Shown here piece after piece: positions 4,963-64,000 of a DNA stretch of 64,000 nt. The translations under genes and the position numbers were made by a program. The notes under the pieces are model-generated. The model did not search any database, was not told the DNA's origin, and saw only the letters and a program-made list of their open reading frames with translations. This DNA comes from the human T2T-CHM13v2.0 reference genome, Homo sapiens: positions 7,232,001 through 7,296,000 of the forward strand of contig CP068257.2 of NCBI GenBank assembly GCA_009914755.4, read 5' to 3'. How positions within the stretch are numbered: the first letter of the stretch is position 1; each line of letters starts with the position of its first letter.

Positions 4963-7900
4963 TGGAGTGGAATGGAAGGTAAGGCAATGGAATGGAATGG
5001 AATGGAATGGAACGGAACGGAATGGAATTGAATGGCATGGAATGAACCTGAACGGAATGGATTGGAATGGAATGGAATGGAATGGAATGGAATCGAATCA
5101 GCTCGAGTGGAATGAAATGTAATGGAATGCAGTGGAATGGAATGGAATTGAATGGAATGGAATGGAATGCAATGGAATGGAATGGAATGGAATCAAACGG
5201 ATTGGAATGGAATGGAATGGAATGGAATGGAATGGAATGGAATGGCATGGAATCAAACCGAGTGAAATGGAATGGAATGGTATGGAATCAACCCGAGTGG
5301 AATATTATCGAATGGAATGGAATTGAACGGAATGCATTGGAATAAAATGGAATGAAATGGAATGGAATCAACCAGAGTGGAATGGAATGGAATGGAGTGG
5401 AATGGAATATAATGGAATGGAACAGAATTAAATGGAAAGGAACGGAATGGAATCAACACGAGTGGAATGGAATGGGATGGAATGGAATGGAATCAACCCG
5501 AGTTGAATGGAATGGAATGGAATGCAATGGAATGAAACGGAATATAATGGAATGGAATGGAAACATCCCAAGAGGAAAGGAATGGTATGGAATGCAATGG
5601 AACGGAATGGAACAGAACGGAATGGAATGGAATGGAATAGATTGAATCAGAGAAGAATTGAGTGGAGAGGAATGGATTGGAATGGAATGTAATGCATTCA
5701 CCCCTAGTTGAATGTAATGGATTGGAAAGGAATGGAATGGAATGGAATGGCGTGGAATGGAATAGAATCAACTCGAGTGGAATGGAATGTAATGGAATGG
5801 AGTGGAATCGAATGGAATGGAATGGAGTCAACCCGAGTGGAATATTATCGAATGGAATGGAATGGAACGGAATGGAATAAAGGAATGGAATAAAATATAA
5901 TGGAATGGAATGGAATCAACCGGAGTGGAATGGAATGGAATGGAGTGGAATGGAATAAAATGGAATGGAATGGAACTAAATGGAAAGGATCAGAATGGAA
6001 TCAACACGAGTGGAATGGAATGGAATGGAATGGAATGGAATGGAATGGAATCAACCCGAGTGGAATGGAATGGAATGGAATGCAATGGAATGAAACAGAA
6101 TAAAGTGGAATGGAATGGAAACATCCCGAGTGGAATGGAATGGTATGGAATGCAATGGAACGGAATGGAACAGAACAGAATGGAATGGAATGGAATAGAT
6201 TGAATCAGAGAGGAATTGAAGGGAGAGGAATGGATTGGAATGGAATGGAATGGATTCAACCCTAGTTGAATGTCACGGATTGGAAAGGAATGGAATAGAA
6301 TGGAATGGAATGGAGTGGAATGGAATGGAGTGGAATCAACAAGAGTGGAATGGAACGGAATGGAATGGAATGGAATGGAATGGAATGGAATGGAATGGAA
6401 ACAACACGAATAGAATATAACGGAATGGAATATAATGCTGTGGAATGGAATGGAATGGAATGAAATAAACACGAATAGAATGGAACGGAATGGAATGGAA
6501 AGGAATGGAATGGAATGGAATGGAATAGAATGGAGTGAAATGGAAAGGAACGGACTGGAATTAATCCGAGTGGAATTGAATGGAATGTAATGCAATGGAA
6601 TGGAGCGGAATCAACCTGAGTGGAATGGAATGGAATGGAATGGAATGGAATGGAATGGAGTGGAATGGAATTGAATGGAATGCAATGGAATGGAATGGAA
6701 TGGGATCAACCCGAATGGAAGGGAACGGAATGGAATGGAAAGGAATGGAATGGAATGGAATGGAATAGAATGGAATTGAATAGATTGAATCAGAGAGGAA
6801 TTGAATGGAGAGGAATGGATTGGAATGGAATGCAATGGATTCAAATCTAGTTGAATGGAATGGAATGGAATGGAATGGAATGGAGTGGAATGGAATGGAG
6901 TGGAATCAACTGGAATGGAATGGAATGGAATGGAATGGAATGGAAACAACACGAATAGAATGGAACGGAATGGAATGGAATGCTGTGGAATGGAAAGGAG
7001 TGGAATGAAATAAACACGAACAGAGTGGAACGGAATGGAATGGAATGGAATGGAATGAAATGGAATGGAATGGAATGGAATGGAGTGAAATGGAAATGAA
7101 CGGAAAGGAACTAAACCGAGTGGAACTGAATGGAATGGAAAGGAATCAACCCGAGTGGAATGAAATGGAATGTAATGCAACGGAATGGAGCGGAATCAAC
7201 CTGAGTGGAATGTCATGGAATGGAATGGAATGGAATGGAATGAAATGAAATGGAATGGAACGGAATGGAAATAACCCGAGTGGAATGGAATGGAATGGAA
7301 AGGAATCAACCCGAGTGGAATGAAATGGAATGTAATGCAATGGAAAAGAGCGGAATCAACCCGAGTCGAATGAAATGGAATGGAATGGAAAGGAGTGGAA
7401 TGGAATGGAATGCAATGGAATTGAATGGAATGGGATGCAATGGAATGGAATGGAATCCAATGGAATCAACTGGAATGGAATAGCATAGAATGGAATGGAA
7501 TGGAATGGAATCAATCCGGGTGGAATGGAATGGAATGTATTGAGTGGAATGGAATGGAATGGAATGCAGTGGAATTTAATGGAATGGAATCAACCCGAAT
7601 GGAATGGAACGGAATGGAATGGAAAGGAATGGAATGGAATGGAATGGAATGGAATGGAATCAACCCGAATGGTATGGAATAGAATGGAATGGATTGGAAT
7701 GGAATGCAATGGAATGCTATGGAATCAATCCGAGTGTAAGGGAAATGCATGGAATGGAATGGAATGGACTGGAATTAACCCAATTGCAATGGAATGGAAT
7801 GGAATGCAACGGAATCAACCCAAGTGGAATGGAATGGAAAGGAATGGAATGAAATGGAATGGAAAGGAATAGAATGGAATCAACCTGAATGGAATGAATT

Positions 7901-10900
7901 GGAATGGAAAGGAATGAATGTAATGTAATGGAATGGAATGGAATGGAATGGAATGGAATGGGATGGAATCAACCCGAGTGGAATGGAATGGACAGGAATG
8001 GAATAGAATTGAATGGAATGGAATGGAATGGAATGGAATGGAATGGAATGGAATGCAATGGAATGGAATGGAATGGAACGGAATGGAATGGAATGGAACG
8101 GAATGGAAACGAATGAACCCGAGTGGAGTGAAATGGAATGTAATGCAATGGAATGGAGCGGAATCAACCTGATTGGAATTGAATGGAATGGAATGGAATG
8201 GAATGCAATGGAATGGAATTAAATCAACCCGAATGGAATGGAACGCAATGGAAAGGAAAGGAATGGAAAAGAATGGAATGGAAAGGAATGGAAAGGAATG
8301 GAATGGAATGGAATGGAATGGAATGGAATGGAATCATCCCTAGTGGAATGGAATGGTATGGAATGCAATGGAATGGAATGGAGCAGAACGGAATGGAGTG
8401 GAATGGAATAGATTGAATCCGAGAGGAATTGACTTGAGTGGAATGGATTGGAATGGAATGCAAGGGATTCAACCCATTTGAATGTCATGGATTGGAAAGG
8501 AGTGGAATGGATTGGAATGGAAAGGAGTGGAATGTAATGGAATAGAATCAACACGAATGGAATGGAACAGAATGGAATGGAATGGAAACAACACGAATGG
8601 AATGGAACGGAACGGAATGGAATGGAATGCTGTGGAATGGAAAGAATTGGAACGAAATAAACACGAATAGAATGGAACGGAATGGAATGGAAAGGAATGG
8701 AATGGAATGGAATGGAATGGAATGGAATGGAATGGAATGGAATGAAATGGAAAGGAACGGAATGGAATTAACCCGAGTGGAACGGAATGGAATGGAAAGG
8801 AATCAACCCGAGTGGAATGAAATGGAATGTAATGCAATGGAATGGAATGGAATGGAATGGTATGGAATCAACCCGAGTGGAATATTATCGAATGGAATGG
8901 AATGGAACGGAATGGAATGGAATAAAATGTAATGTAATGGAATGGAATCAACAGGAGTGCAATGGAATGGAATGGAGTGGAATGGAATATAATGGAATGG
9001 AATGGAATTAAATGGAAAGGAAAGGAATGGAAGCAACACGAGTGGAATGGAATCAACCCGAGTGGAATGGAATGGAATGCAATGCAATGGAATGAAACGG
9101 AATATAATGGAATAGAATGGAAACATCCTGAGTGGAATGGAATGGTACGGATTGCAATGGAACGGAATGGAAAAGAACGGAATGGAATGGAACGGAATAG
9201 ATTGAATCAGAGAGGAATTGATTGGAGAGGAATGGATTGGAATGGAATGCAATGGATTCAACGCTAGTTGAATATCATGGATTGGAAAGGAATGGAATGG
9301 AATGGAATGGAGTGGAGTGGAATGGAATAGAATCAACTCGATTGGAATGTAATGTAATGGAATGGAGTGGAATGGAATGGAATTGAATGGAATGGATGGA
9401 ATGGAATGGAATGGAATGGAATGGAATGGAATGGGGTGGAATGGAATGGAAAGCAATGAAATGGAAAGGAATGCTATGGAATCAACCCGAGTGTAATGGA
9501 AATGAATGGAATGGAATGGAATGGATTGGAATGGAATGGAATGGAATCAAGCCAAGTGCAATGGAATGGAATAGAATGCAACGGAATCAACACGAGTGGA
9601 ATGGAATAGAAAGGCATGCAATGGAATGGAATGGAAAGCAATGGAATGGAATCAACCCGACTGGAATGGAATGGAGTGGAAAGGAATGAATGGAATGGAA
9701 TGCAATGGAAAGGTATGGAATCAACCCGACTGGAATGGAATGGAATGGAATGGAATGGAATGGAATGGAATGGAGTGGAATGGAAGGCAATGCAATGGAA
9801 TGGAACGGAATGCAATGGAACGGAACGGAATGGAATTGAATGGCAGGGAATGAACCCGAATGGAATGGAATGGAATGGAATGGAATGGAATATAATCAAC
9901 TCGAGTGGAATGGAGTGTAATGGAATGGAGTGGAATGGAATGGAAATGAATGGAATGGAATGGAATGGAATGGAACGGAATGGAATGGAATGGAATCAAC
10001 ACGACAGGAAAGGAATGGAATGGAAAGGAATGGAATGGAATCAACCAGAGTGGAATGGAATGGAATGGAATGAAATGGAATTGAACGGAATACAATGGAA
10101 TTCAATGGAGTCACCCCGAGTGGAATGGCATGGTATGGAATGCAATGGAATGGAATGGAACAGAACGGAATGGAATGGAATCAATAGATTGAATCCGAGT
10201 GGAATTGAATGGAATGGAATGGATTCGAATTTAATGGAATGGATTGGAATGTAAAGCAATTATTTCAAACCGATTGGAATGTCATGGATTGGAATGGAGT
10301 GCAATGGAATGGAATGGAATGGAAAGGAATGGAGTGAAATGGAGTAAACACCAGTGGAATGAAATGGAATGGAATGAAATACAATGGAATGGAATGGAAT
10401 GGAATGAACCCGAATGGAATGGAATGGAATGAAATCAACCAGAGTGGAATGGAATGGTATGGAATGGAATCGAATGGAATGGAAAGGAATGGAATCAACT
10501 CTAATGGAAAAAAATGGAATGGAATGGAATGGAAACAACACGAATGGAATGGAACGGAACGGAATGGAATGGAATGCTGTGGAATGGAAAAAATTGGAAC
10601 GAAATAAACACGAATAGAATGGAACAGAATGGAATGGAAAGGAATGGAATGGAATGGAATGGAATGGAATGGAATGGAATCGAATGAAATGGAAAGGAAC
10701 GGAATGGAATTAACCCAAGTGGAATGGAATGGAAAGGAATCAACCCGAGTGGAATGAAATGGAATGTAATGCAATGGAATGGAGCGGAATCAACCTGAGT
10801 CGAATGCAATGGAATGGAATGGAAAGGAGTGGAATGGAATGGAATGGAATGGAATGGAATGGGATGCAATGGAACGGAATAGAATCCAATGGAATCAACT

Positions 10901-13349
10901 CGAATGGAGTAGCATAGAATGGAATGGAATGGAATGGAATCAATCCGGGTGGAATGGAATGGAATGTATGGAGTGGACTGGAATGGAATGGAGTGGAATG
11001 GAATGGAATGGAATGCAGTGGAATTTAATGGATTGGAATCAACCCGAATGGAATGGAACGGAGTGGAATGGAAAGGAAAGGAATGGAATGGAATGGAACG
11101 GAACGGAATGGAATGGAATGGAATGGAATGGAATGGAATGGAATGGAATGGAATGCAATGGAATGCTATGGAATCAATCCGAGTGTAAGGGAAATGCATG
11201 GAATGGAATGGAATGGAATGGAATTAACCCAAGTGCAATGGAATGGAATAGAATGCAACGGAATCAACCCAAGTGGAATGTAATGGAAAGGAATGGAATG
11301 AAATGGAATGGAAAGAATGGAATGGATTCAACCCGAATGGAATGAAATGGAATGGAAAGGAATGAATGGAATGGAATGGAATGGAAAGGAATCAACCCGA
11401 GTGGAATGAAATGGAATGTAATGCAATGTAATGGAGTGGAATCAACCTGATTGGAATGGAATGGAATGCAATGGAATGGAATGGAATGAAATCAACCCGA
11501 ATGGAATGGAACGGAATGGAAAGGAAAGGAATGGAATGGAATGGAATGGAAATGAATGGAATGGAATCATCCCGAGTGGAATGGAATGGTATAGAATGCA
11601 ATGGAATGGAATGGAACAGAACGGAATGGCGTGGAATGGAATAGATTGAATCCAAGAGGAATTGACTTGAGTGGAATGGATTGGAATGGAATGCAAGGGA
11701 TTCAACCCAGTTGAATGTCATGGATTGGAAAGGAGTGGAATGAATTGGAATGGAAAGGAGTGGAATGGAATGGAATGGAATCAACACGAATGGAATGGAA
11801 CGGAATGGAATTGAATGGAAACAACACGAATGGAATGGAAGGGAATGGAATGGAATGGAATGCTGTGGAATGGAAAAAATGGGAAAGAAAAAAACACGAA
11901 TTGAATGGAACAGAATGGAATGGAAAGGAATGGAATGGAATGGAATGGAATCGAATGAAATGGAAAGGAACGGAATGGAATTAACCCGAGTGGAACGGAA
12001 TGGAATCGAAAGGAATCAACCCGAGTGGATTGAAATGGAATGTAATGCAATGGAATGGAGCGGAATCAACCTGAGTCAAATGCAATGGAATGTAATGCAA
12101 TGGAATGGAGCGGAATCAACCTGAGTCAAATGCAATGGAATGTAATGGAAAGGAGTGGAATGGAAAGGAATGGAAAGGAATGGAATGAAATGGGATGCAA
12201 TGGAACAGAATGGAATCAAATGGAATCAACTGGAATGGAATAGCATAGAATGGAATGGAATGGAATGGAATCAATCCGGGTGGAATGGAATGGAATGTAA
12301 GGAGTGGAATAGAATGGAATGGAGTGGAATGGAATGGAATGTAATGCAGTGGAATTTAATGGAATGGAATCAACCCGAATGGAATGGAACGGAATTGAAT
12401 GGAATGGAATGGAATGGAATGGAATGGAATGTAATGGAATGCAATGAAATGGAATCAACCCGAATGGGATGGAATGGAATGGAATGCAATGGAATGGAAT
12501 GGAATGGAAAGGAATGCAATGGAATGCTATGGAATGAACCCGAGTGTAAGGGAAAAGCATGGAATGGAATGGAATGGAATGGAATCGAATCAACCCAAGT
12601 GCAATGGAATGGAATGGAATGCAACGGAATCAACCCGAGTGGAATGAAATGCAAAGGAATGGAATGAAATGGAATGGAAAGGAATGGAATGGAATCAACC
12701 CGAATGGAATGGAATAAAAAGGCATGCAATAGAATGGAATGGAAAGCAATGGAATAGAATCAACCCGACTGGAATGGAATGGAATAGAAAGGAATGAATG
12801 TAAAGGAATGGAATGGAAAGGTATGCAATCAACTCCAGTGGAATGGAATGGAATGGAATGGAATGGAATGGAGAAGAATGGAAGGCAAAGCAATGGAATG
12901 GAAAGGAATGGAATGGAATGGAATGGAATGGAATGGAATGGAATGGAATCAACTCGAGTGAAATGGAATGTAATGAAATGGAGTGGAACGGAATGGAATT
13001 GAATGGAAAGGAATGGAACGGAATGGAATGGAATGGAATCGAATGCAATGAACCCAAATGGAATGGAATGGAATGGAATGGAATGGAATGGAATGGAAAG
13101 GAATGGAATGGAATGGAAAAAACCCGACTGGAATGGAATGGAATGGAATGGAATGGAGTGGAATGGAAGGCAATGCAATGGAATGGAATGGAATGGAAAG
13201 GAATGGATCGGAATGGAATTAAATGGCATGGAATGGAATCAACCCGTATCGAATGGAATGGAATGGAATGGAATGGAATGGAATGGAATGGAATGGAATC
13301 AACCCGAATGGAATGGAATGGAATGGAAAGGAATGAATGGAATTGAATG

Positions 13350-16300
13350 CAATGCAATGGAATGGAATGGAATGGGATGGAATCAACCCGAGTGGAATGG
13401 AATGGACTGGAATGGAATAGAATGGAATGGATTGGAATGGAATGCAGTGGCATGGAATTGAATGGAAAGGAACGCAATGGAATGGAATGGAAAGGAATCA
13501 ACCCGAATGGAATGAAATGGAATGTAATGCAATGGAATGGAGCGGAATCAACCTGATTGGAATGGAATGGAATGGAATGGAATGCAATGGAATGGAATGG
13601 AAAGAAATCAACCCGAATGGAATTTAATGGAATGGAAAGGAAAAGAATGGAATGGAATGGAATGGAATCGAATGCAATGGAATGGAATGGAATGGAATGG
13701 AATGGAATGGAATGGAATCATCCCGAGTGGAATGGAATGGTATGGAATGCAATGGAATGGAATGGAACAGAACGGAATGGAGAGGAATGGAATAGATTGA
13801 ATCCGAGAGGAATTGACTTGAGTGGAATGGATTGGAATGGAATGCAAGGGATTTAACCCAGTTGAATGTCATGGATTGGAAAGGAGTGGAATGGAATGGA
13901 ATGGAAAGGAGTGGAATGGAATGGAATGGAATCAACACGAATGGAACGGAACGCAATGGATGGAATGGAAACAACACGAATGGAATGGAACGGAACGGAA
14001 TGGAATGGAATGCTTTGGAATGGAAAGAATTGGAACGAAATAAACACGAATAGAATGGAACAGAATGGAATGGAATGGAATGGAATGGAATGGAATGGAA
14101 TGAAATGGAAAGGAACGGAATGGAATTAACCCGAGTGGAACGGAATGGAATGGAAAGGAATCAATCCGAGTGGAATGAAATGGAATGTAATGCAATGCAA
14201 TGGAGCGGAATCAACCTGAGTCGAATGCAATGGAATGGAATGGAAAGGAGTGGAATGGAATGGAGTGGAATGGAATTGAATGGAATGGAATGCAATGGGA
14301 TGCAATGGAACGGAATGGAATCCAATGGAATCAACTGGAACGGAATAGCATAGAATGGAATGGAATGGAATGGAATCAATCCGGGTGGAATGGAATGGAA
14401 TGTATGGAGTGGAATAGAATGGAATGGAGTGGAATGGAATGGAACGGAATGCAGTGGAATTTAATCGAATGGAATCAACCCGAATGGAATGGAACGGAAT
14501 GGAATGGAAAGGAATGGAATTTAATGGAAAGGAATGGAATGGAATGGAAAGGAATGGAATGGAATCAACACGAATGGGATGGAATGGAATGCTATAGAAT
14601 GAACCCGAGTGTAAGGGAAATGCATGGAATGGAATGGAATGGAATGGAATCAACCCAAGTGCAATGGAATTGCATGGAATACAACGGAAGCAACCCGAGT
14701 GGAATGGAATGGAAAGGAATGGAATGTAATGGAATGTAAAGGAATGGAATGGAATCAACCCGAATTGAATGGAATAGAAAGGCATGCAATGGAATGGAAT
14801 GGAAAGCAATGGAATGGAATCAACCCGACTGGAATGGAATGGATTGGAATGGATTGGAGTGGAATGGAAGGCAATGCAATGGAGTGCAATGGATGTCAAT
14901 GCAATGGAATGGAATGGAATGGAAAGGAATGGAACGGAATGGAATTAAATGGCATGGAATGGAATCAACCCGAATGGAATGGATTGGAATGGAATGGAAT
15001 GGAATGGAATGGAATGGAATGGAATCAACCCGAAAGGAATGGAATGGAATAGAAAGGAATGAATGGAATGGAATGGAATGGAATGGAATGGAATGGGATG
15101 GAATCAACCCGAGTGGAATGGAATGGACTGGAATGGAATAGAATGGAATGGAATGGAATGGAATGCAGTGGAATGGAATGGAAGGGAAGGGAACGCAATG
15201 GAATGGAATGGAAAGTAATCAACCCGAGTGGAATGAAATGGAATGTAATGCAATGGAATGGAGCGGAATCAACCTGATTGGATTGGAATGGAATGGAATG
15301 GAAAGCAATGGAATGGAATGGAATGAAATCAACCCGAATGGAATGGAATGGAATGGAAAGGAAAAGAATGGAATGGAATGGAATGGAAACGAATGCAATG
15401 GAATGGAATGGAATGGAATGGAATGGAATGGAATGGAATCATCCCGAGTGGAATGGAATGGCATGGAATGCAATGGAATGGAATGGAACAGAACGGAATG
15501 GAGAGGAATGGAATAGATTGAATCCGAGAGGAATTTACTTGAGTGGAATGGATTGGAATGGAATGCAAGGGATTCAACCCAGTTGAATGTCATGGATTGG
15601 AAAGGAGTGGAATGGAATGGAATGGAAAGGAGTGGAATGGAATGGAATGGAATCAACACGAATGGAATGGAATGGAATGGAATGGAATGGAAACAATACG
15701 AATGAAATGGAACGGAACGGAATGGAATGGAATGCTGTGGAATGGAACGAATTGGAACGAAATAAACACGAATAGAATGGAACAGAATGGAATGGAATGG
15801 AATGCAATGGAATGGTATGGAATGGAATGGAATGGAATGAAATGGAAAGGATCGGAATGGAATTAACCTGAGTGGAACGGAATGGAATGGAAAGGAATCA
15901 ACCCGAGTGGAATGAAATGGAATGTAATGCAATGCAATGGAGCGGAATCAACCTGAGTCGAATGCAATGGAATGGAATGGAAAGGGGTGGAATGGAATGG
16001 AATGGAATGGAATGCAATGGGATGCAATGGAACGGAATGGAATCCAATGGAATCAACTGGAATGGAATAGCATAGAATGGAATGGAATGGAATGGAATCA
16101 ATCCGGGTGGAATGGAATGGAATGTATGGAGTGGAATAGAATGGAATGGAGTGGAAAGGAATGGAATGGAATGCAGTGGAATTTAATCGAATGCAGTCAA
16201 CCCGAATGGAGTGGAACGGAATGGAATGGAATGGAAAGGAATGGAATGGAATGGAAGGGAATGGAATGGAATCAACACGAATGGGATGGAATGGAATGGA

Positions 16301-18938: not shown

Positions 18939-19206
18939 GGAATAGAAAGGCATGCAATGGAATGGAATGGAAAGAAATGGAATGGAATTAACCCGACTGG
19001 AATGGAAAGGAATGGAAAGGAATGAAGGGAATGGAATGGAATGGAAATGTACGGAATCAACCCGAGTGGAATGGAATAGAAAGGCATGCAATGGAATGGA
19101 ATAGAAAGCAATGGAATGGAATTAACCCGACTGGAATGGAAAGGAATGGAAAGGAATGAAGGGAATGGAATGGAATGGAAATGTATAGAATCAACCCGAG
19201 TGGAAT
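18939..19206. repeat. About 134-bp local tandem duplication beginning ggaatagaaaggcatgcaatgg
   Basis: Unit 18939-19072 is repeated at 19073-19206 with a handful of substitutions (gtacgg versus gtatag; ggaaagaaatgg versus agaaagcaatgg). Confidence 0.8.
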
Positions 19207-52300: not shown

Positions 52301-53199
52301 AAATCGAGAGGAACAGAATGGAATCAACACGAGTGGAATGGAATGGAATGGAATGGAATGGAATCAACCCGAGTGGAATGGAATGGAATGGAATGTAATG
52401 GAATGAAGCGGAATATAATGCAATGGAATGGAAACATCCCGAGTGGAATGGAATGGTATGGAATGCAACGGAACGGAATGGAACAGAACGGAATGGAATG
52501 GAACGGAATAGATTGAATCAGAGAGGAATTGAATGCAGAGGAATGGATTGGAATGGAATGCAATGGATTCAACCCTAGTTGAATGTCATGGATTGGAAAG
52601 GAATGGAATGGAACGGAATGGAATGGAATGGAATGGAGTGGAATGAAATGGTGTGGAATCAACACGAATGGAAAGGAACGAAATGGAATGGAATGGAATG
52701 GAATGGACTGGAATGGAATGGAATGGAATGGAAACAACACGAATAGAATGGAACGGAATGGAATGGAATGCTGTGGAATGGAATGGAATGGAAAGGAATC
52801 AACCCGAGTGGAATGAAATGGAATGTAATGCAATGGAATGGAGCGGAATCAACCTGAGTCAAATGCAATGGAATGGAATGGAATGGAGTGGAATGGAATG
52901 GAATGGAATGGAATGGAATGGAATGGAATGGAACGGAATGGAATCCAATGGAATCAACTGGAATGGAATAGCACAGAATGGAATGGAATGGAATGGAATC
53001 AATCCGGGTGGAATGGAATGGAATGTATGGAGTAGAATGGAATGGAATGGAGTGGAATGGAATGGAATGGAATGCAGTGGAATTTAATGGAACGGAATCA
53101 ACCCGAATGGAATGGAACGGAATGGAGTGGAAAGGAATGGAATGGAATGGAATGGAATGGAATGGAATGGAATGGAATGGAATGGAATGGAATCAACCC

Positions 53200-56100
53200 A
53201 AGTGCAATGGAATGGAATGGAATGCAATGGTATCAACCCGAGTGGAATGGAAAGGAAAGGAATGAAATGAAATGGAATGGAAAGGAATGGAATGGAATCA
53301 AACCGAATGGAATGGAATGGAATGGAATGGAAAGTAAAGAATGGAATGGAATGGAATGGATTGGTATGGAATGGTATGGAATCAACCCGAGTGGAATGGA
53401 ATGGACAGGAATGGAATAGAATGGAATGGGATGGAATGGAATGCAATGGAATGGAAAGGAATGGTACGGAATGGAACGGAATGGAATAGAATGAACACGA
53501 ATGGAATGGAATGGAAAGGAATGGATTGGAATGGAATGGAATGGAATCAACCCGAGTGGAACGGAATGTAATGAAATGGAGTGGAATGGAAAGGAATGGA
53601 ATGGAATGGAATGAACACGAATGGAATGGAATGGAATGGAATGGAATGGAATGGTATGGAATCAACCCGAGTGGAATGGAATGGACAGGAATGGAATAGA
53701 ATGGAATGGGATGGAATGGAATGCAATGGAATGGAATGGAATAGAAAGGAATGGTACGGAATGGAACGGAATGGAATAGAATGAACACGAATGGAATGGA
53801 ATGGAAAGGAATGGATTGGAATGGAATGGAATGGAATCAACCCGAGTGGAACGGAATGTAATGGAATGGAGTGGAATGGAATGGAATGGAATGGAATGGA
53901 ATGGAATGGAATGCAATGGAATCAACACGAATGGAATGGAATGGCATGGAATGGAAGGGAATGGAATGAAATGGAATCAACCCTAGTGGAATGGAATGGA
54001 ATGGAGTTTAATGGAATGGAATAGAATAGATTGGTATGGAATCAACCCGAGAGGAATGGTATGGAATGGAATGCAATGGAATGGAATGCAATGCAACAAA
54101 ATGGAATGGAATGGAATGGTATCAACACGAGTGGAAGGGAATGGAATGGAATGGAATCAACCGGAGTGGAATGGAATGGAATGGAGTGGAATGGAATGGA
54201 ATGCAATGAAATGGAAAGGAACGGAATTTAATCACCCCGAGTGGAATGGAATAGAATGGAATGGAAAGGAATGGAATCAACCCGAGTGGAATGGAATGGA
54301 ATGGAATGGAATGGAATGGAATGGAATGGAATGGAATGGAATCAACCTGAGTGGAATGGAATGGAATGGAATGGAATGGAATGGAATGGAATGGAATGAA
54401 CACGAGTGGAATGGAATAGAATGAAATGCAATGGAATGAAATGGAATGCAATGGAATGGAATGGAATGCAAGACATTGGAATCAACTGGAATGGAATGGA
54501 ATGCAATGGAATGGAATGGAATGCAATGGAATCAACCAGAGTGGAAAGGAATAGAATGGAATGGATTATAATGCAATGGAATGGAATCAATCCTGGTGCA
54601 ATGGAACGGAATGGCATGGAGTGGAATGGAACGGAATGGAATGGAATGGAATGGAATGGAAAGGAATCAACCCGAAAGGAATGGAATGGAATGAAATGGA
54701 AAGGAATGGAATGCAATGGATTGGAATGGAATGAAATGGATTCAACCCGAATTGAATGGAATGGAATGGAATGGAATGTTATATAATCAACACGAGTGGA
54801 ATGAAATGAATGGAAAGAAATGGAATGGAATGCAATGGAATGGAATGGAAAGGAATGGAATGGAATCAACCCGAATGGAATTGAATGGAAAGGAATGGAA
54901 TGGAATGGATTAGAATGGAATGGAATGGAATGGAATGGAATGGAATGGAATGGAATGGAGTGGAATGGAATGGAATGGAATCATCCCGAGTGGAATGGAA
55001 TGGTATGGAATGCAATGGAATGGCATGGAACAGAACGGAAAGGAATGGAATGGAATAGATTGAATCTGAGAGGAATTGACTGGAGTGGAATGGATGGAAA
55101 TGGAATGAAAGGGATTCAACCAAGTTGAATGTCATGGATTGGAAAGGAGTGGAATGGAATGGAATGGAAAGGAGTGGAATGGAATGGAATGGAATCAACC
55201 CGAATGGAATGGAACGGAATGGAATGGAAAGGAAAGGAATGGAATGGAATGGAATGGAATGGAATGGAATCAACCTGAATAGGATGGAATGGAATGGAAT
55301 GGAATGGAATACAATGGAATGCTATGGAATAAACCCGAGTGTAATGGAAATGCATGGAATGGAATGGAATGGAATGGAATGGAATGGAATGGAATGGAAT
55401 CAACCCAAGTGCAATGGAATGGAATGGAATGCAACGGAATCAACCCGAGTGGAATGGAATGGACAGGAATGGAATAGAATGGAATGGGATGGAATGGAAT
55501 GCAATGGAATGGAAAGGAATGGTACGGAATGGAACGTAATGGAACGGAATGGAATAGAATGAACACGAAAAGAATGGAATGGAAAGGAATGGATTGGAAT
55601 GGAATAGAATGGAATCAACCCGAGTGGAACGGAATGTAATGGAATGGAGTGGAATGGAATGGAATGGAATGGAATGGAATCAACACGAATGGAATGGAAT
55701 GGCATGGAATGGAATGGAATGGAATGGAATGGAATGGAATGGAATCAACCCTAGTGGAATGGAATCGAATGGAGTTTAATGGAATAGAATAGAATAGATT
55801 GGTATGGAATCAACCCGAGAGGAATGGTATGGAATGGAATGCAATGGAATGGAATGGAATGGAATAAAATGGAACGGAATGGAATGGAATCAACGCGAGT
55901 GGAAGGGAACGGAATGGAATGGAATCAAAAGGAGTGGAATGGAATGGAATGGAGTGGAATGGAATGGAATGCAATGAAATGGAAAGGAACGGAATTTAAT
56001 CAACCCGAGTAGAATGGAATAGAATGGAATGGAAAGGAATGCAATCAACCCGAGAGGAATGGTATGGAATGGGATGCAATGCAATGGAATGGAATGGAAT

Positions 56101-56250
56101 AGAATGGAATGCAATGGAATGGAATCAACCCGAGTGGAAGGGAATGGAATGGAATGGAATCAACCGGATTGGAATGGAATGGAATGGAGTGGAATGGAAT
56201 GAATGCAATGAAATGGAAAGGAATACTATGAAATCAACCCGAGTGTAATG
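53200..56250. repeat. Spacer between the two 10.9-kb copies, organised with its own ~290-bp and ~1.78-kb periodicities and rich in CAACACGAATGG variants
   Basis: ORFs 53511..53699, 53801..53986 and 55579..55779 share MERNGLEWNGMESTRVERNVM[EK]WSGME (offsets 290 and 1778). ORFs 53996..54424 and 55824..56012 share VSTRVEGNGMEWNQ[PK]EWNGMEWSGMEWNAMKWKGTEFN. Minus ORFs 53084..53788 and 55270..55566 share MFILFHSVP..IPFYSIPVHSIPLGLIP. Confidence 0.6.
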
Positions 56251-57919
56251 GAAATGAACGGAATGGAATGGAATGGGATGGAATCAAGCCAAGTGCAATG
56301 GAATGGAATAGAATGCAACAAAATCAACCCGAGTGGAATGGAATAGAAAGGCATGCAATGGAATGGAATGGAAAGCAATGGAATGGAATCAACCGGACTG
56401 GAATGGAATGGAATCGAAAGGAATGAATGGAATGGAATGGAATGGAAAGGTATGGATTCCACCCGAGTGGAATGGAATGGAATGGAATGGAATGCAGTGG
56501 AATGGAAGGCAATGAAATGGAATGGAAAGGAATGGAATGGAATGGAATGGAATGCAACGGAACGGAATGGAATTGAATGGCATGGAATGAACCCGAATGG
56601 AATAGAATGGAATGGAATGGAATGGAATGAAATGGAATGGAATGGAATGGTATGGAATGGAATGGAAACAACACGAATGGAATGGAACGGAAAGGAATGG
56701 AATGGAATGCTGTGGAATGGAATGGAATGGAATGAAATAAACACGAATAGAGTGGAATGGAATGGAATGGAACGGAATGGAATGGAATGGAATGGAATTG
56801 AATGGAATGAAATGGAAAGGAACGGAATGGAATTAACCGAGTGGAACGGGATGGAATGGAAAGGAATCAATCCGAGTGGAATGAAATGGAATGTAATGCA
56901 ATGGAATGGAGCGGAATCAACCTGAGTCGAATGCAATGGAATGGAATGGATTGGAGTGGAATGGAATGGAAGGTAATGGAATGGAATGGAATGGAATGGA
57001 ATGGAATGGAATGGAATGGAATTGAATGGAATGGAATGGAATCCAACGGATTCAACTGGAATGGAATAGCATAGAATGGAATGGAATGGAATGAAATCAA
57101 TCCGGTGGAATGGAATGGAATGTATGGAGTGGAATGGAATGGAATGGAGTGGAATGGAATGGAATGGAATGCAGTGGAATTTAATGGAATGGAATCAACC
57201 CGAATGGAATGGAATGGAATGGAATGGAAAGGAGTGGAATGGAATGGAATGGAATGGAATGGAATGGAATGGAATGGAATCAACCCAAATGGGATGGGAT
57301 GGAATGGAATGGAATGGAATCAACCTGAATGGAATGGAATGGAATGGAATGGAAAGGAATGGAATGGAATGGAATGGAATGGAATGGAATAGAATGGAAT
57401 CAACAAGAATGGGATGGAATAGAATGGAATGGAATGGAATGGAAAGGAATCCTATTGAAACAACTCGAGTGTAATGGAAAAGAAAGGAATGGAATGGAAT
57501 GGAATGGAATGCAATGGAATGGAATCAAACCAAGTGCAATGGAATGGAATAGAATGCAACGGAACCAACCCGAGTGGAATGGAATAGAAAGGCATGCAAT
57601 GGAATGGAATGGAAAGCAGTGGAATGGAATCAACCCGACTGGAATGGAATGGAATGGAAAGGAATGAAGGGAATGGAATGGAATGGGAAGGTATGGAATC
57701 AACCCGAGTGGAATGGAATGGAATGGAATGGAATGGAATGGAGTGGAATGGAATGGAATGGAATGGAATGGAGTGGAATGGAATGGAGTGGAATGGAATG
57801 GAGTGGAATGGAATGGAGTGGAATCGAGTGGAATGGAATGGAATGGAGTGGAATGGAAGGCAATGAAATTTTATGGAATGGAATAGAAAGGAGCGGAACA
57901 GAATGGAATTGAATGGCAT

Positions 57920-60900
57920 GGAATGGACCCGAATGCAATGGAATGGAATGGAATGGAATGGAATGGAATGGAATGGAATGGAATCAACCCAAATGGAATG
58001 GAATGGAATGAAATGGAATGGAATGGCATGGAATCAACCCGAATGGAATGGAATGGAATGGAATGGAATGGAATGGCATGGAATCAACCCGAGTGGAATG
58101 GAATGGAAAGGAATTCAATGGAATGGAAAGGAATGCAATGGTATGGAATCAACCAGAGTGGAATATTATCGAATACAATGGAATGGAACGGAATGGAATG
58201 GAATAAAATGTAATGGAATGGAATGGAATCAACCGGAGTGCAATGAAATGGAATGGAATAAAATGGAATGGAATGGAATTAAATGGAAAGGAACGGAATG
58301 GAATCAACACGAGTGGAATGGAATGGAATGGAATGGAATCAATCCGAGTGGAATGGAAAGTAATGGAATGCAAAGGAATGAAACGGAATATAATGGAATG
58401 GAATGGAAACATCCCGAGTGGAATGGAATGGTATGGAATGCAATGGAACGGAATGGAACGGAACGGAATGGAATGGAATGGAATAGATTGAATCAGAGAG
58501 GAATTGAATGGAGAGGAATGGAATGGAATGGAATGCAATAGATTCAACTCTGGTTGAATATCATGGATTGGAAAGGAATGGAATGGAATGGAATGGAGTG
58601 GAATGGAATAGAATCAACTCGAGTGCAATGGAATGTAATGGAATGGAGTGGAATGGAATGGAATGCAATGAAATGGAAAGGAATGCTATGGAATCAACCC
58701 GAGTGTAATGGAAATGAATGGAATGGAATGGAATAGAAAGGAATGAATGGAAAGGAATGGAATGGAATGGAATGGTATGGAATCAACCCGAGTGGAATGG
58801 AATGGACTGGAATGGAATAGAATGGAATGGAATGGAATGGAATGCAACAGAATCAACCCGAGTAGAATGGAATGGAAAGAAATGGAATGAAATGGAATGG
58901 AAAGGAATGGAATGGAATCAACACGAATGGAATGGAATGGAATGGAAAGGAATGAATGGAATGGAATGGAATGGAATGGAATGGTAGGGAATCAACACGA
59001 GTGGAATGGAATGGAATGGAATGGAATGGAATGCTATGCAATCAACAGGAGTGTAATGGAAATGAATGGAATGGAATGGAATGGAATGGGATGGAATGGA
59101 ATGGAATAGAATGGAATAAACCAGAGAGGAATGGAATGGAATGGATTGGAATGGAATGGAACGGATTGGAATGCTATGCAATCAACAGGAGTGTAATGGA
59201 AATGAATGGAATGGAATGGAATGGAATGGAATAAACCCAAGTGCAATGGAATGGAATAGAATGCAATGGAATAAAAAAAAAAGTGGAATGGAATAGAAAG
59301 GCATGCAATGGAATGGAATGGAAAGCAAAGGAATGGAATCAACCCGACTGGAATGGAATGGAATGGAAAGGAATGAAGGGAATGGAATGGAATGGAAAGG
59401 TATGGAATCAACTCGAGTGGAATGGAATGGAATGGAATGGAATGGAATGGAATGGAATGGAGTGGAATGGAAGGCAATGCCATGGAATGGAACGGAATGG
59501 AATGGAATGGAATGGAATGGAATGGAACGGAATGGAATTGAATGGCATGGAATGAACCCGACTGGAATGGAATGCAATGGAATGGAATGGAATGGAATGG
59601 AATGGAATCAACCCGAATGGAATGGAATGGAATGGAATGGAGTGGAATGGAATGGAATTGAATGGAATGGAATAGAATGGAATGGAAAGGAATCAACCCG
59701 AATTGAATGGAATGGAATGGATTGGAATGGAATGGAATCGAATGGAATGGAATGGAATCAACCCGAGTGGAATGGAATGGAATGGAATGGAATGGAATGG
59801 AGTGGAATGGAAGGCAATGCCATGGAATGGAATGGAATGGAATGGAATGGAATGGAATGGAATGGAACGGAATGGAATAGAATGGCATGGAATGAACCCG
59901 ACTGGAATGGAATGCAATGGAATGGAATGGAATGGAATGGAATGGAATGGAATGGAATGGAATGGAATCAACCCGAATGGAATGGAATGGAATGGAATGG
60001 AGTGGAATGGAATGGAATTGAATGGAATGGAATAGAATGGAATGGAAAGGAATCAACCCGAATTGAATGGAATGGAATGGAATGGAATGGAATCGAATGG
60101 AATGGAATGGAATCAACCCGAGTGGAATGGAATGGAATGGAATGGAATCAACCTGAATGGAATGGAATGGAATGGAATGGAAAGGAATGGAATGGAATGG
60201 AATGGAATGGAATGGAATGGAATGGAATAGAATGGAATCAACAAGAATGGGATGGAATAGAATGGAATGGAATGGAATGGAAAGGAATCCTATTGAATCA
60301 ACCCGAGTGTAATGGAAAAGAATGGAATGGAATGGAATGGAATGGAATGGAATGCAATGGAATGGAATCAAACGAAGTGCAATGGAATGGAATAGAATGC
60401 AACGGAACCAACCCGAGTGGAATGGAATAGAAAGGCATGCAATGGAATGGAATGGAAAGCAGTGGAATGGAATCAACCCGACTGGAATGGAATGGAATGG
60501 AAAGGAATGAAGGGAATGGAATGGAATGGGAAGGTATGGAATCAACCCGAGTGGAATGGAATGGAATGGAATGGAATGGAATGGAGTGGAATGGAATGGA
60601 GTGGAATCGAGTGGAATGGAATGGAATGGAGTGGAATGGAAGACAATGAAATTTTATGGAATGGAATAGAAAGGAGCGGAACAGAATGGAATTGAATGGC
60701 ATGGAATGGACACGAATCCAATGGAATGGAAGGGAATGGAATGGAATGGAATGGAATGGAATCAACCCGAATGGAATGGAATGGAATGGAATGGAATGGA
60801 ATTAAATGGAAAGGAATGGAATGGAATCAACACGAGTGGAATGGAATGGAATGGAATGGAATGGAATGGAATGGAATCAATCCGAGTGGAATGGAATGGA

Positions 60901-63900
60901 ATGGAATGGAATGCAATGGAATGGAATGGAAAGGAATGGAATGGAATGGAATGGAAGGCAAGGCAATGGAATGGAATGGAATGGAACGGAATGGAACTCA
61001 ATGGCATGGAATGAACCAGACTGGAATGGAATGCAATGGAATGGAATGGAATGGAATGGAATGGAATGGAATGGAATGGAATGGAATCAACCCGAATGGA
61101 ATGGAATGGAATGGAATGGAGTGGAATGGAATGGAATTGAATGGAATGGAATGGAATGGAAAGGAATCAACCCGAATGGAATAGAATGGAATGGAATGGA
61201 ATGGAATGGAATGGAATGGAATGGAATCAACCCGAGTGGAATGGAATGGAATGGAATTCAGTGGAATGGAACGGAATGGGATGGTATGGAATCAAGCTGA
61301 GTGGAATATTATCGAATGAAATGGAATGGAATGGGACGGTATGGAATCAACCCGAGTGGAATATTATCGAATGAAATGGAATGGAACGGAATGGAATGGA
61401 ATAAAATGTAATGGAATGCAATGGAATCAACCGGAGTGCAATGGAATGGAATGGAATAAAATGGAATGGAATGGAATTAAATGGAAAGGAACGGAATGGA
61501 ATCAACACGAGTGGAATGGAATGGAATGGAATGGAATGGAATAGAATGGAATGGAATGGAATCAACCGGAGTGCAATGGAATGGAATGGAATAAAATGGA
61601 ATGGAATGGAATTAAATGGAAAGGAACGGAATGGAATCAACACGAGTGGAATGGAATGGAATGGAATGGAATGGAATGGAATGGAATGGAATGGAATCAA
61701 TCCGAGTGGAATGGAATGGAATGGAATGCAATGGAATGAAACGGAATATAATAGAATGGAATGGAAACATCCCGAGTGGAATGGAATGGTATGGAATGCA
61801 ATGGAACGGAATGGAACAGAACGGAATGGAATGGAATGGAATAGATTGAATCAGAGAGGAATTGAATGGAGAGGAATGGAATGGAATGGAATGCAATGGA
61901 TTCAACTCTAGTTGAATATCATGGATTGGAAAGGAATGGAATGGAATGGAATGGAATGGAATGGAATGGAATGGAGTGGAATGGAATAGAATCAACTCGA
62001 GTGCAATGGAATGTAATGGAATGGAGTGGAATGGAATGGAATGCAATGAAATGGAAAGGAATGCTATGGAATCAACCCGAGTGTAATGGAAATGAATGGA
62101 ATGGAATTGAATAGAAAGGAATGAATGGAATGGAATGGAATGGAATGGAATGGAATGAAATGGAATGGTATGGAATCAACCCGAGTGGAATGGAAAGGAC
62201 TGGAATGGAATAGAATGGAATGGAATGGAATGGAATGCAATGGAATCAACCCGAGTAGAATGGAATGGAAAGAAATGGAATGAAATGGAATGGAAAGGAA
62301 TGGAATGGAATCAACACGAATGGAATGGAATGGAATGGAAAGGAATGAATGCAATGGAATGGAATGGAATGGAATGGTAGGGAATCAACCCGAGTGGAAT
62401 GGAATGGAATGGAATGGAATGGAATGGAATGGAATCCAGCCGAATGGGATGGAATGCAATGCAATGGAATGGAATGGAATAGAATCAACCCGAATGGAAT
62501 GGAACGGAATGGAATGAAAAGGAATGGAATGGAAAGGAATGGAATGGAATAGAATGGAATAAACCAGAATGGAATGGAATGGAATGGATTGGAATGGAAT
62601 GGAATGGAATGGAATGCTATGGAATCAACAGGAGTGTAATGGAAATGAATGGAATGGAATGGAATGGAATGGAATAAACCCAAGTGCAATGGAATGGAAT
62701 AGAATGCAATGGAATCAACCCAAGTGGAATGGAATAGAAAGGCATGCAATGGAATGGAATGGAAAGCAAAGGAATGGAATCAACCAGACTGGAATGGAAT
62801 GGAATGGAAAGGAATGAAGGGAATGGAATGGAATGGAAAGGTATGGAATCAACTCGAGTGGAATGGAATGGAATGGAATGGAATGCAATGGAATGGAATA
62901 GAATCAAATCGAATGGAATGGAATGGAATGGAGTGGAATGGAATGGAATTGAATGGAATGGAATGGAATGGAAAGGAATCAACCCGGATGGAATGGAATA
63001 GAATGGAATGGAATGGAATGGAATGGAATGGAATCAACCCGAGTGGAATGGAATGGAGTGGAATTCAATGGAATGAAGTGGAATGGGATGGTATGGAATC
63101 AACCCGTGTGGAATATTATCGAATGAAATGGAATGGAATGGGATGGTATGGAATCAACCCGAGTGGAATATTATCGAATTAAATGGAATGGAACTGAATG
63201 GAATGGAATAAAATGCAATGGAATGGAATGGAATCAACCAGAGTGGAATGGAATATAATGGAATGGAATTAAATCGAGAGGAACAGAATGGAATCAACAC
63301 GAGTGGAATGGAATGGAATGGAATGGAATGGAATCAACCCGAGTGGAATGGAATGGAATGGAATGGAATGGAATGAAGCGGAATATAATGCAATGGAATG
63401 GAAACATCCCGAGTGGAATGGAATGGTATGGAATGCAACGGAACGGAATGGAACAGAACGGAATGGAATGGAACGGAATAGATTGAATCAGAGAGGAATT
63501 GAATGCAGAGGAATGGATTGGAATGGAATGCAATGGATTCAACCCTAGTTGAATGTCATGGATTGGAAAGGAATGGAATGGAACGGAATGGAATGGAATG
63601 GAATGGAGTGGAATGAAATGGTGTGGAATCAACACGAATGGAAAGGAACGAAATGGAATGGAATGGAATGGAATGGACTGGAATGGAACGGAATGGAATG
63701 GAAACAACACGAATAGAATGGAACGGAATGGAATGGAATGCTGTGGAATGGAATGGAATGGAAAGGAATCAAACCGAGTGGAATGAAATGGAATGCAATG
63801 CAATGGAATGGAGCAGAATCAACCTGAGTCAAATGCAATGGAATGGAATGGAATGGAGTGGAATGGAATGGAATGGAATGGAATGGAATGGAATGGAATG

Positions 63901-64000
63901 GAACGGAATGGAATCCAATGGAATCAACTGGAATGGAATAGCACAGAATGGAATGGAATGGAATGGAATCAATCCGGGTGGAATGGAATGGAATGTATGG
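57920..64000. repeat. Copy B of the approximately 10.9-kb segmental duplication (runs off the window end); preceded at about 57.2-57.9 kb by an extra copy of the 49.2-49.83-kb sub-segment
   Basis: As above. The junction at about 57.9 kb joins sequence homologous to about 49.83 kb directly to sequence homologous to about 47.09 kb. ORF 57574..57912 matches 49547..49825 and 60417..60695 but carries an expanded (MEWSG)n run. ORF 57873..58541 then matches 47.1-47.6 kb. Confidence 0.85.

What the first reader, a model, noticed from the sequence alone, without database searches (positions are those of the whole stretch)
5600..64000. Two fixed variants (A and B) of a recurring non-pentameric signature block partition the array into sub-domains
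A ~100-bp block (...AATAGATTGAATC[AC]GAGAGGAATTGA[AC]TGGAG[AT]GG...GCAA[TG]GGATTCAACCC[T]AGTTGAATGTCATGGATTGGAAAGGA[AG]TGG...) recurs about 40 times. It occurs in two states whose diagnostic substitutions are linked. Variant B is the only form in the 33.7-47 kb HOR. Variant A dominates 47-64 kb (a single B at about 55.1 kb), and both interleave across 5.6-33 kb. The first about 5.3 kb has neither. Linked diagnostic substitutions across many copies imply two sub-lineages (sub-subfamilies) that were amplified separately and then juxtaposed or partially homogenised. The window may sit on a boundary between HSat3 subfamily blocks.
Basis: seen in the sequence. Interest (0 to 1): 0.5.

Follow-up and report, generated by a model that had tools for sequence, protein, structure and literature searches.

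The report
Linked block variants in HSat3 satellite

Summary
The window is one uninterrupted, single-orientation (GGAAT)n satellite of the HSat3B type. The ~100-bp block is real: 46 copies, all on the + strand, none in 1-5600, and none expected by chance. The two-state claim holds. Six core sites are tightly linked (r2 0.6-1.0), unsupervised clustering recovers A (17 copies) and B (23 full-length plus 3 truncated) exactly, and 7 independent metagenome contigs carry complete A or complete B haplotypes. Three corrections apply. (1) The block is not non-pentameric: variant A is 20 in-register diverged pentamers containing a mutated CAACCCGAGT decamer. (2) A third, more divergent form C (3 copies) and truncated junction forms exist. 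(3) The "partition into sub-domains" reflects repeated counting of duplicated copies. The B-only zone is a B-B pair copied in 2.2-3.8 kb units. The A-rich zone is a 10.9-kb unit (A,A,A,B) duplicated at 99.6% identity. In 5.6-33.7 kb the A/B order is random, and after collapsing recent duplicates no domain effect remains (p 0.18-0.32, low power). No subfamily boundary is visible. This matches the published "nested tandem repeats expanding hyper-locally" picture of HSat3. It is ordinary and of low novelty.

The parts
1..64000 (+). Continuous (GGAAT)n satellite of the HSat3B-clade type, single orientation, no insertions
   Evidence: TRF reports one 5-bp array at 14-63995. At least 11 GGAAT and at most 1 ATTCC per 200 bp. 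105 copies of AATCAACCCGAGTGGA. No Rfam hits.
1..3371 (+). 1.65-kb tandem duplication (1-1654 ~ 1655-3371) that lacks the block
   Evidence: Rare 24-mer chain. 99.8% identity at aligned bases.
5636..5736 (+). Block, variant A
6194..6294 (+). Block, variant A
6779..6878 (+). Block, variant A, 3' part replaced by plain pentamers
8407..8506 (+). Block, variant B
9196..9296 (+). Block, variant A
10183..10302 (+). Block, third form C (20 bp longer)
11640..11739 (+). Block, variant B
13791..13890 (+). Block, variant B
15512..15611 (+). Block, variant B (copy of 13791 through a 1.7-kb duplication)
18017..18137 (+). Block, third form C
18747..18844 (+). Block, variant B
19964..20064 (+). Block, variant A
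20359..20459 (+). Block, variant A
21129..21228 (+). Block, variant B (first of a B-b pair)
21442..21517 (+). Block, variant B lacking the 5' part (junction form b)
22202..22302 (+). Block, variant A
22967..23066 (+). Block, variant B
23516..23616 (+). Block, variant A
23926..24026 (+). Block, variant A
24601..24700 (+). Block, variant B
26010..26109 (+). Block, variant B
26999..27099 (+). Block, variant A
27384..27483 (+). Block, variant B (first of a B-b pair)
27695..27796 (+). Block, variant B lacking the 5' part (b)
28066..28186 (+). Block, third form C
29280..29379 (+). Block, variant A, 3' part replaced by plain pentamers
29825..29924 (+). Block, variant B
30284..30383 (+). Block, variant B (first of a B-b pair)
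30550..30652 (+). Block, variant B lacking the 5' part (b)
32400..47125 (+). Nested-tandem-repeat zone: five units, each with a B-B pair about 800 bp apart. Unit lengths by spacing between successive B-B pairs are 2.2, 2.7, 3.6 and 3.8 kb. The three youngest units span 36259-46349.
   Evidence: Block spacing. Chains 36259-38398 ~ 39877-42071 ~ 43690-46349. 96.8-98.8% identity between young units, about 94% for older ones, 88% for the control.
32501..32600 (+). Block, variant B
33320..33419 (+). Block, variant B
34747..34845 (+). Block, variant B
35546..35645 (+). Block, variant B
37402..37501 (+). Block, variant B, sub-type B1 (TTCACTGGAG)
38181..38279 (+). Block, variant B, sub-type B2 (TTGACTGCAG, ATATCATGG)
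41040..41139 (+). Block, variant B, sub-type B1
41854..41953 (+). Block, variant B, sub-type B2
44853..44952 (+). Block, variant B, sub-type B1
45657..45756 (+). Block, variant B, sub-type B2
47136..53030 (+). First copy of the duplicated part of a roughly 10.9-kb unit (carries A, A, A)
   Evidence: Chains at lag 10.86-10.98 kb. 99.6% identity to 58054-64000.
47564..47664 (+). Block, variant A
50965..51065 (+). Block, variant A (3.4-kb internal duplicate of the 47564 module)
52507..52607 (+). Block, variant A
55054..55153 (+). Block, variant B, inside the not-yet-repeated part (53-58 kb) of the same 10.9-kb unit
58054..64000 (+). Second copy of the duplicated part of the 10.9-kb unit (runs off the window end)
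58482..58582 (+). Block, variant A (copy of 47564)
61840..61940 (+). Block, variant A (copy of 50965)
63477..63577 (+). Block, variant A (copy of 52507)

Best explanation
The block is a decayed stretch of the satellite itself: 20 diverged GGAAT-type pentamers that include one mutated copy of the HSat3 decamer CAACCCGAGT. It sits in a conserved module of roughly 250-300 bp within an HSat3B-type array. An ancestral module was copied and its copies diverged into three paralogous forms. Form C split first and still keeps the CpG of the decamer. A and B then separated by six fixed differences. Two of these changes lie at the decamer's CpG guanine: G to T in A and loss of that base in B, so B shifts the pentamer phase by one. 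All three forms were then scattered and re-copied by the usual satellite processes: unequal exchange, segmental tandem duplication, and pentamer slippage in the flanks. In 5.6-33.7 kb this produced a random mix of A, B and C. Two very recent local amplifications then created apparent domains. One is a B-B pair copied in 2.2-3.8 kb units across 32.4-47.1 kb. The other is a 10.9-kb unit carrying A,A,A,B, copied about 1.5 times across 47.1-64 kb. Whichever variants were in the segment that got amplified now dominate that zone. No function is implied for the block or for its variants. Shown: the copies, the linkage, the three clades, the duplications and their identities, the random order in the mixed zone, and the uniform background. 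Inferred: the order of events and the recombinational mechanism.
For: Copies and specificity. Linkage of the six sites. Exact A/B recovery by clustering, bimodal distances, and between-class distance equal to within-class distance outside the diagnostic sites. Three clades, with external copies nested in A and B. Pentameric nature and decamer remnant. Phase shift by B only. Conserved module longer than the block and shared upstream flank of A and B. Collinear duplications. Their identities (99.6% for the 10.9-kb duplication, 96.8-98.8% for the 3.6-3.8 kb units, 88% for the control). Random order in 5.6-33.7 kb and loss of the domain signal after collapsing duplicates. Uniform composition and marker-oligonucleotide density. 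[quoted passage not shown]
Against: The collapsed spatial tests have little power (4 and 3 independent copies in the two zones), so a real underlying domain structure cannot be excluded. The choice of which copies count as recent duplicates is mine. The window's subfamily within HSat3B is unresolved. Only the single most common 24-mer per subfamily could be tested, and the full list held here is truncated, so a subtle subfamily transition cannot be ruled out directly. The near-identical 10.9-kb and 1.65-kb duplications could not be checked against reads. The site GAAT[G/A]TCATGG varies within both A and B, which a simple two-founder history does not explain on its own.
Confidence: 0.85

Rival explanations
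1. One reading: A and B are two sub-subfamilies that were amplified in separate arrays and later brought together, and the window straddles a boundary between HSat3 subfamily blocks.
For: The naive domain test is significant: chi-square p=0.003, with 8 of 8 B in 33.7-47 kb and 6 of 7 A in 47-64 kb. The only Table-1 marker with an exact hit (HSat3B1) and the near-matches to the HSat3A4 marker lie only in 5.6-33.7 kb. CAACACGART decamers are absent from 0-3.4 kb.
Against: A and B are intermixed at sub-kb spacing and in random order over 28 kb. Both sit in one 10.9-kb repeat unit. Composition and HSat3B-marker density are uniform across zones. There is no strand switch or insertion. The domain signal disappears when recent duplicates are counted once.
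Confidence: 0.07
2. The block is a functional element kept by selection, for example a protein-binding platform or a transcript motif, and A and B are two functional alleles.
For: The block columns are 95-97% conserved across copies whereas distant flanks are about 75-85%. HSat3 is reported to carry transcription-factor motif platforms (bioRxiv 10.1101/2024.10.22.616524).
Against: The adjacent 100-150 bp of alignable module is just as conserved (0.91-0.97). The drop further out is due to pentamer copy-number change rather than substitutions. Truncated and junction copies persist and are themselves re-copied. There are no Rfam hits. Within-class divergence is 5%, typical for this array.
Confidence: 0.03
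3. The apparent domains are an assembly artefact: mis-joined or falsely duplicated satellite contigs create the B-only and A-rich zones.
For: The 10.9-kb and 1.65-kb duplications are 99.6-99.8% identical, the kind of structure that assemblers can create or collapse.
Against: The duplicated copies differ by many pentamer-scale indels (100-350 gap columns), as expected for real diverging copies. The 3.6-3.8 kb units form a graded age series (94% to 98.8%). The A and B haplotypes are replicated in independent contigs. Reads are not available to test this directly.
Confidence: 0.04

Closest known systems
Human satellite 3, HSat3B clade (Altemose et al. 2014, PMC4022460)
   Same: (GGAAT)n base repeat with the interspersed CAACCCGAGT decamer. 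The Tagarro SAT3 oligonucleotide TCCACTCGGGTTGATT, reported to be confined to the HSat3B clade, occurs 105 times. No HSat2 markers are present.
   Different: The subfamily (B1-B5) could not be assigned. Of the Table-1 marker 24-mers, only the B1 marker has a single exact hit. Species and chromosome are not known from the window itself.
Nested tandem repeats (NTRs) of HSat2 and HSat3 with locally varying periodicity (Altemose et al., bioRxiv 10.1101/2021.07.12.452052)
   Same: Multi-kb repeat units built from a diverged simple repeat. The period changes along the array (1.65 kb, 2.2-3.8 kb, 10.9 kb), with very recent local expansions.
   Different: Nothing substantive. The A, B and C block variants are simply convenient landmarks for seeing this organisation, and I found no paper that names them.
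Alpha-satellite higher-order repeats and HOR haplotypes or layered expansions
   Same: Linked variant positions define sub-lineages of repeat copies, and local amplification homogenises a zone.
   Different: There are no discrete monomers of similar length. Unit length is not fixed (2.2-3.8 kb), so it is not a HOR in the strict sense. No symmetric layering is visible in 64 kb.
DYZ1 (HSat3A6), the 3.56-kb Y-chromosome HSat3 repeat
   Same: The 3.6-3.8 kb period seen in 36-46 kb is similar in length.
   Different: The HSat3A6 marker 24-mer has no match within 1 mismatch. The window carries the HSat3B-clade oligonucleotide throughout. The period is confined to about 10 kb.

Membership tests
HSat3 (human satellite 3) | Base repeat (GGAAT)n / (CATTC)n | tested here: met
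   TRF reports a single 5-bp array at 14-63995 with consensus AATGG. 49-56% of bases lie in perfect GGAAT.
HSat3 (human satellite 3) | Interspersed decamer CAACCCGA(A/G)T | tested here: met
   4.5-6.4 CAACNCGART per kb in every domain. 105 copies of AATCAACCCGAGTGGA.
HSat3 (human satellite 3) | Not HSat2: absence of HSat2 marker sequences | tested here: met
   The SAT2 oligonucleotide TCGAGTCCATTCGATGAT has 0 hits at <=2 mismatches. The three HSat2 top 24-mers have 0 hits at <=2 mismatches.
HSat3 (human satellite 3) | Human (or ape) pericentromeric origin | not testable with these tools
   The window holds no non-satellite sequence. The support is indirect only: related contigs carry Alu-, L1- and beta-satellite-like sequence, identified from my own knowledge of those repeats.
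HSat3B clade | Presence of the Tagarro SAT3 oligonucleotide TCCACTCGGGTTGATT, stated to occur only in the HSat3B clade (Text S1 of PMC4022460; oligonucleotide sequence from bioRxiv 10.1101/554410) | tested here: met
   105 exact matches on the + strand as the reverse complement, at 1.05-2.06 per kb in all five domains.
A specific HSat3B subfamily (B1-B5) | Enrichment of that subfamily's specific 24-mers (Dataset S2 of PMC4022460) | tested here: inconclusive
   Only the top 24-mer per subfamily was available. B1 has 1 exact hit (19187) and 4 at <=1 mismatch. B5 has 1 at <=1 mismatch. B2, B3 and B4 have 0. The stored Dataset S2 is truncated within HSat2.
Nested tandem repeat (NTR) organisation | Multi-kb repeat units composed of diverged simple repeat, with periodicity that can vary along the array | tested here: met
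   Collinear chains at lags of 1.65, 3.6-3.8 and 10.9 kb in different parts of the window. Identities of 96.8-99.8% against an 88% control.
Classical higher-order repeat (alpha-satellite type) | Unit made of a discrete number of monomers of similar length, with a fixed period | tested here: not met
   Successive B-B units measure 2246, 2655, 3638 and 3813 bp. There is no monomer level above the pentamer.
DYZ1 / HSat3A6 | HSat3A6-specific 24-mers and a 3.56-kb unit across the array | tested here: not met
   The top HSat3A6 24-mer has 0 hits at <=1 mismatch. The B-clade oligonucleotide is present throughout. The 3.6-3.8 kb period is limited to 36-46 kb.
Boundary between two HSat3 subfamily arrays | Change in background k-mer composition, marker density, strand or an intervening sequence at the junction | tested here: not met
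   Composition is uniform and marker density is uniform. There is no strand switch or insertion. A and B share one 10.9-kb unit. The full 24-mer test was not possible.

The most novel reading that the evidence does not exclude
The A, B and C block states might be stable, array-wide lineage markers, analogous to alpha-satellite HOR haplotypes. Surveyed across complete genomes, they could reconstruct the order of layered expansions in HSat3B arrays or reveal exchange between chromosomes. More speculatively, the block could be a conserved binding site whose two states differ in function.
Probability: 0.05. Interest if true: 0.35.

Novelty: already known. Interest (0 to 1): 0.1.

Why it matters
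It matters little beyond description. The result is a clean worked example of how local amplification in a satellite array can look like a domain or subfamily boundary when duplicated copies are counted as independent observations. The A, B and C block states could serve as easy landmarks for dissecting HSat3B array structure in complete assemblies. The underlying phenomenon, nested tandem repeats that expand hyper-locally, is already published.

Tried and rejected
1. Whole-window megablast self-comparison timed out on the repeat. I replaced it with chaining of rare 24-mers.

2. Ungapped lag autocorrelation was too noisy because of pentamer indels.

3. nhmmer E-values are meaningless here because the profile matches the pentamer background everywhere (929 hits). 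I used the clean score gap instead: background <=53 bits, copies >=60 bits.

4. The stored Dataset S2 is sorted by subfamily and cut off within HSat2.

5. A full-text search for the block sequence found no paper.

6. The block pattern has no match in genome contigs or viral contigs.

7. DYZ1 was considered because of the 3.6-3.8 kb period and rejected.

8. A foreign or transposon origin of the block was rejected because it aligns in register to pentamers plus the decamer.

9. An alternating A-B ancestral dimer was rejected because runs in the mixed zone equal the random expectation.

10. Embedded RNA genes: none.

Full report
WHAT THE WINDOW IS. All 64 kb form one tandem array of the pentamer GGAAT (AATGG) on the + strand. 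TRF reports a single 5-bp array from 14 to 63995. GC content and skew are flat. Every 200-bp window has at least 11 GGAAT and at most one ATTCC, so there is no insertion and no strand switch. Rfam finds nothing. The decamer CAACCCGAGT is interspersed at 4.5-6.4 per kb. The classical SAT3 oligonucleotide TCCACTCGGGTTGATT (sequence given with citation to Tagarro et al. 1994 in bioRxiv 10.1101/554410) occurs 105 times as its reverse complement, in every part of the window. Altemose et al. 2014 state in Text S1 that this oligonucleotide is found only in the HSat3B clade. The SAT2 oligonucleotide and the HSat2 marker 24-mers are absent. The window is therefore HSat3 of the B clade. The subfamily within that clade could not be resolved: of the 14 Table-1 marker 24-mers only the B1 marker has one exact hit, and the stored full list is truncated within HSat2.

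CHECK OF THE OBSERVATION. Combining a 5' anchor, the 3' anchor and a profile search gives exactly 46 copies. These score 60-105 bits, and the pentamer background stops at 53 bits. No copy lies in 1-5600 or on the minus strand. Unsupervised UPGMA at k=2 separates the 38 full-length copies exactly into A and B, and the pairwise-mismatch histogram is bimodal. The tallies are 17 A (two lacking the 3' part), 23 full-length B, 3 B lacking the 5' part, and 3 copies of a third form. The stated positions hold: only B in 33.7-47 kb (8 of 8), six A and one B (55054) in 47-64 kb, both forms interleaved in 5.6-33.7 kb, and none before 5636.

INDEPENDENT REPLICATION. The block pattern was found in 7 metagenome contigs and in no bacterial-genome or viral contig. 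All seven carry either a complete A haplotype (L002, L003, L004, L006) or a complete B haplotype (L001, L005, L007), and they cluster inside the A and B clades. They match the window at only 75-91% identity, so they are paralogous copies from elsewhere rather than the same locus. Their non-satellite parts contain sequence I recognise, from my own knowledge of the consensus sequences, as Alu-like, L1 ORF2-like and 68-bp beta-satellite-like repeats. That is consistent with a human or ape host origin. Some of these contigs may be chimeric.

CORRECTIONS TO THE OBSERVATION. First, the block is not non-pentameric. Variant A is exactly 100 nt, or 20 pentamers in register. It is 80% identical to (AATGG)12 + AATCAACCCGAGTGG + (AATGG)5, which lies inside the lower part of the background range for identity to the pure pentamer (0.74, against a median of 0.83 and a 5th percentile of 0.67). 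It contains a mutated copy of the HSat3 decamer: CAACCCTAGT in A and CAACCC-AGT in B. B's 1-bp deletion shifts the GGAAT phase by one, while A keeps the phase. Second, there is a third form, C, at 10183, 18017 and 28066. It is 20 bp longer, keeps the CpG (CAAACCGATTGG), and forms the deepest split in the joint tree. Third, the block is only the most conspicuous part of a longer conserved module. Column agreement stays at 0.91-0.97 for about 250-300 bp, and A and B share the upstream flank ...ATCCCGAGTGG...GGTATGGAATGCAATGG...AACAGAACGG. By the stricter measure of shared informative 14-mers, the median extension is 62 bp for A-B pairs, 114 bp for A-A pairs on the left, and 66 bp for B-B pairs on the right.

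WHY THE ARRAY LOOKS PARTITIONED. Chaining of rare 24-mers shows the large-scale duplications. Segment 1-1654 matches 1655-3371. Segments 36259-38398, 39877-42071 and 43690-46349 match each other at lags of 3.6-3.8 kb. Segment 47136-53030 matches 58054-64000 at a lag of about 10.9 kb, with an internal 3.4-kb duplicate (47294-48087 against 50675-51514). Several older duplications lie within 13-31 kb. Identity at aligned bases is 99.8% for the 1.65-kb pair, 99.6% for the 10.9-kb pair, 96.8-98.8% among the three young 3.6-3.8 kb units, and about 94% for older units. Arbitrary satellite segments aligned the same way give 88%. Each unit of the B-only zone carries a B-B pair about 800 bp apart. The pairs start at 32501, 34747, 37402, 41040 and 44853, so unit length grows from 2.2 to 3.8 kb, and position-specific sub-types B1 and B2 are visible in the young units. 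In the A-rich zone the three A copies at 58-64 kb are simply the duplicates of those at 47-53 kb. The single B at 55054 lies in the part of the same unit whose next copy would fall beyond the window end. That unit therefore reads A,A,A,B, and A and B belong to one repeat unit.

STATISTICS OF THE PARTITION. With all A and B copies counted, the runs test gives 17 runs against 21.6 expected (P=0.095), and the three-zone contingency test gives p=0.003. Within 5.6-33.7 kb there are 14 runs against 14.4 expected, which is a random order: neither clustered nor alternating. After keeping one copy per recent duplication family, the runs test gives P=0.32 and the zone test p=0.18. These collapsed tests have low power, with 4 and 3 independent copies in the two zones. 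They do show, however, that the evidence for domains rests entirely on two recent amplification events.

NO SUBFAMILY BOUNDARY SEEN. The perfect-pentamer fraction (0.49-0.56), decamer density, 12-mer spectra (cosine >=0.96) and density of the HSat3B marker oligonucleotide (1.05-2.06 per kb) are similar in all zones, including the block-free first 5.6 kb. Rare 24-mers from 4-6 kb and 19-23 kb recur in 47-63 kb. A and B copies lie as close as 385 bp to each other.

HISTORY INFERRED. Outside the six diagnostic columns, the between-class distance (0.052) equals the within-class distances (0.050 and 0.054). This is what is expected if two founder copies differing at six sites each gave rise to many descendants that then accumulated independent changes. 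Single-site exceptions (for example 22967, 26999, 24601 and 18747) are consistent with point mutation, often toward the consensus pentamer. One site, GAAT[G/A]TCATGG, varies in both A and B and in the external contig L004, so it needs recurrent mutation or short-tract conversion. The three 5'-truncated B copies each follow, at 270-315 bp, a B copy with the unusual prefix TAAGTAATGGAATGC. They begin with the motif AATAAA[AC]ACGAATAGAATGGAACGG that normally lies downstream of B blocks. They therefore look like one deletion or unequal-exchange junction that was later copied three times, and the pairs are 86-91% identical.

COMPARISON WITH WHAT IS KNOWN. Altemose et al. (bioRxiv 10.1101/2021.07.12.452052) describe HSat2 and HSat3 arrays as built from multi-kb nested tandem repeats. 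They distinguish these from higher-order repeats because the units are not made of discrete monomers. [quoted passage not shown] That is what this window shows. It is not a strict HOR, because unit length is variable and there is no monomer tier. It is not DYZ1 either: the HSat3A6 marker is absent and the B-clade oligonucleotide is present throughout. I found no paper containing the block sequence, so the A, B and C labels are new names for ordinary variants. They should not be confused with the HSat3A and HSat3B clades.

VERDICT. The descriptive core of the finding (a recurrent block with two linked states at the stated places) is correct and far beyond chance. The block is a decayed piece of the satellite rather than a foreign or non-pentameric element. 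There are three forms rather than two. The sub-domains are the footprint of two very recent local amplifications inside one HSat3B-type array, not a subfamily boundary. This is already-described satellite behaviour, so interest is low.

Noticed in passing
window 10183-10302, 18017-18137, 28066-28186: A third, more divergent form (C) of the block. It is 20 bp longer, retains the CpG of the decamer remnant (CAAACCGATTGG), and forms the deepest split in the joint tree.
   Followed up: yes
window 21129-21517, 27384-27796, 30284-30652: Three B-b pairs. Each is a B block with the unusual prefix TAAGTAATGGAATGC, followed 270-315 bp later by a B block that lacks its 5' 25-40 nt. The truncated copy is joined to a motif that normally lies downstream of B blocks. 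This looks like one deletion or unequal-exchange junction that was later copied three times (86-91% identical).
   Followed up: partly
window 6779-6878 and 29280-29379: Two A blocks whose 3' part, after CTAGTTGAATGG, is replaced by plain pentamers. Both share CAAA-type changes in the decamer remnant, so they are probably related copies.
   Followed up: no
block position GAAT[G/A]TCATGG, e.g. window 9274, 32578, 38258, 47642: This G/A site is polymorphic within both A (9196, 47564, 50965, 58482, 61840 and external L004) and B (32501, 38181, 41854, 45657). It is not linked to the A/B split and is not a CpG site. It implies recurrent mutation or short-tract conversion.
   Followed up: partly
window 1-3371: A 1.65-kb tandem duplication at 99.8% identity (with about 100 gap columns) in the block-free start of the window. 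CAACACGART-type decamers are absent from 0-3.4 kb although they occur elsewhere at 0.9-2.1 per kb.
   Followed up: partly
whole window: The GGAAT reading phase changes 98 times, about once per 650 bp. B blocks each contribute a shift of one base through their 1-bp deletion, while A blocks keep the phase.
   Followed up: partly
L006 1-~560; L001 ~90-560; L005 ~2480-4439 (oriented with GGAAT on +): The metagenome contigs that carry the block also contain sequences resembling ~68-bp beta-satellite repeats (L006), an Alu followed by a (GAAA)n tract (L001), and Alu 3' ends embedded in diverged HSat3 plus an L1 ORF2-like segment and unique sequence (L005). I identified these from memory of the consensus sequences, and the contigs may be chimeric assemblies.
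   Followed up: no
window 19187-19210: The single exact match to the most common HSat3B1-specific 24-mer of Altemose 2014 lies here. All 4 matches at <=1 mismatch are in 19-33.7 kb. HSat3B1 is reported to be specific to a 280-kb array on chr17 in T2T-CHM13. This is far too sparse to assign the window.
   Followed up: partly
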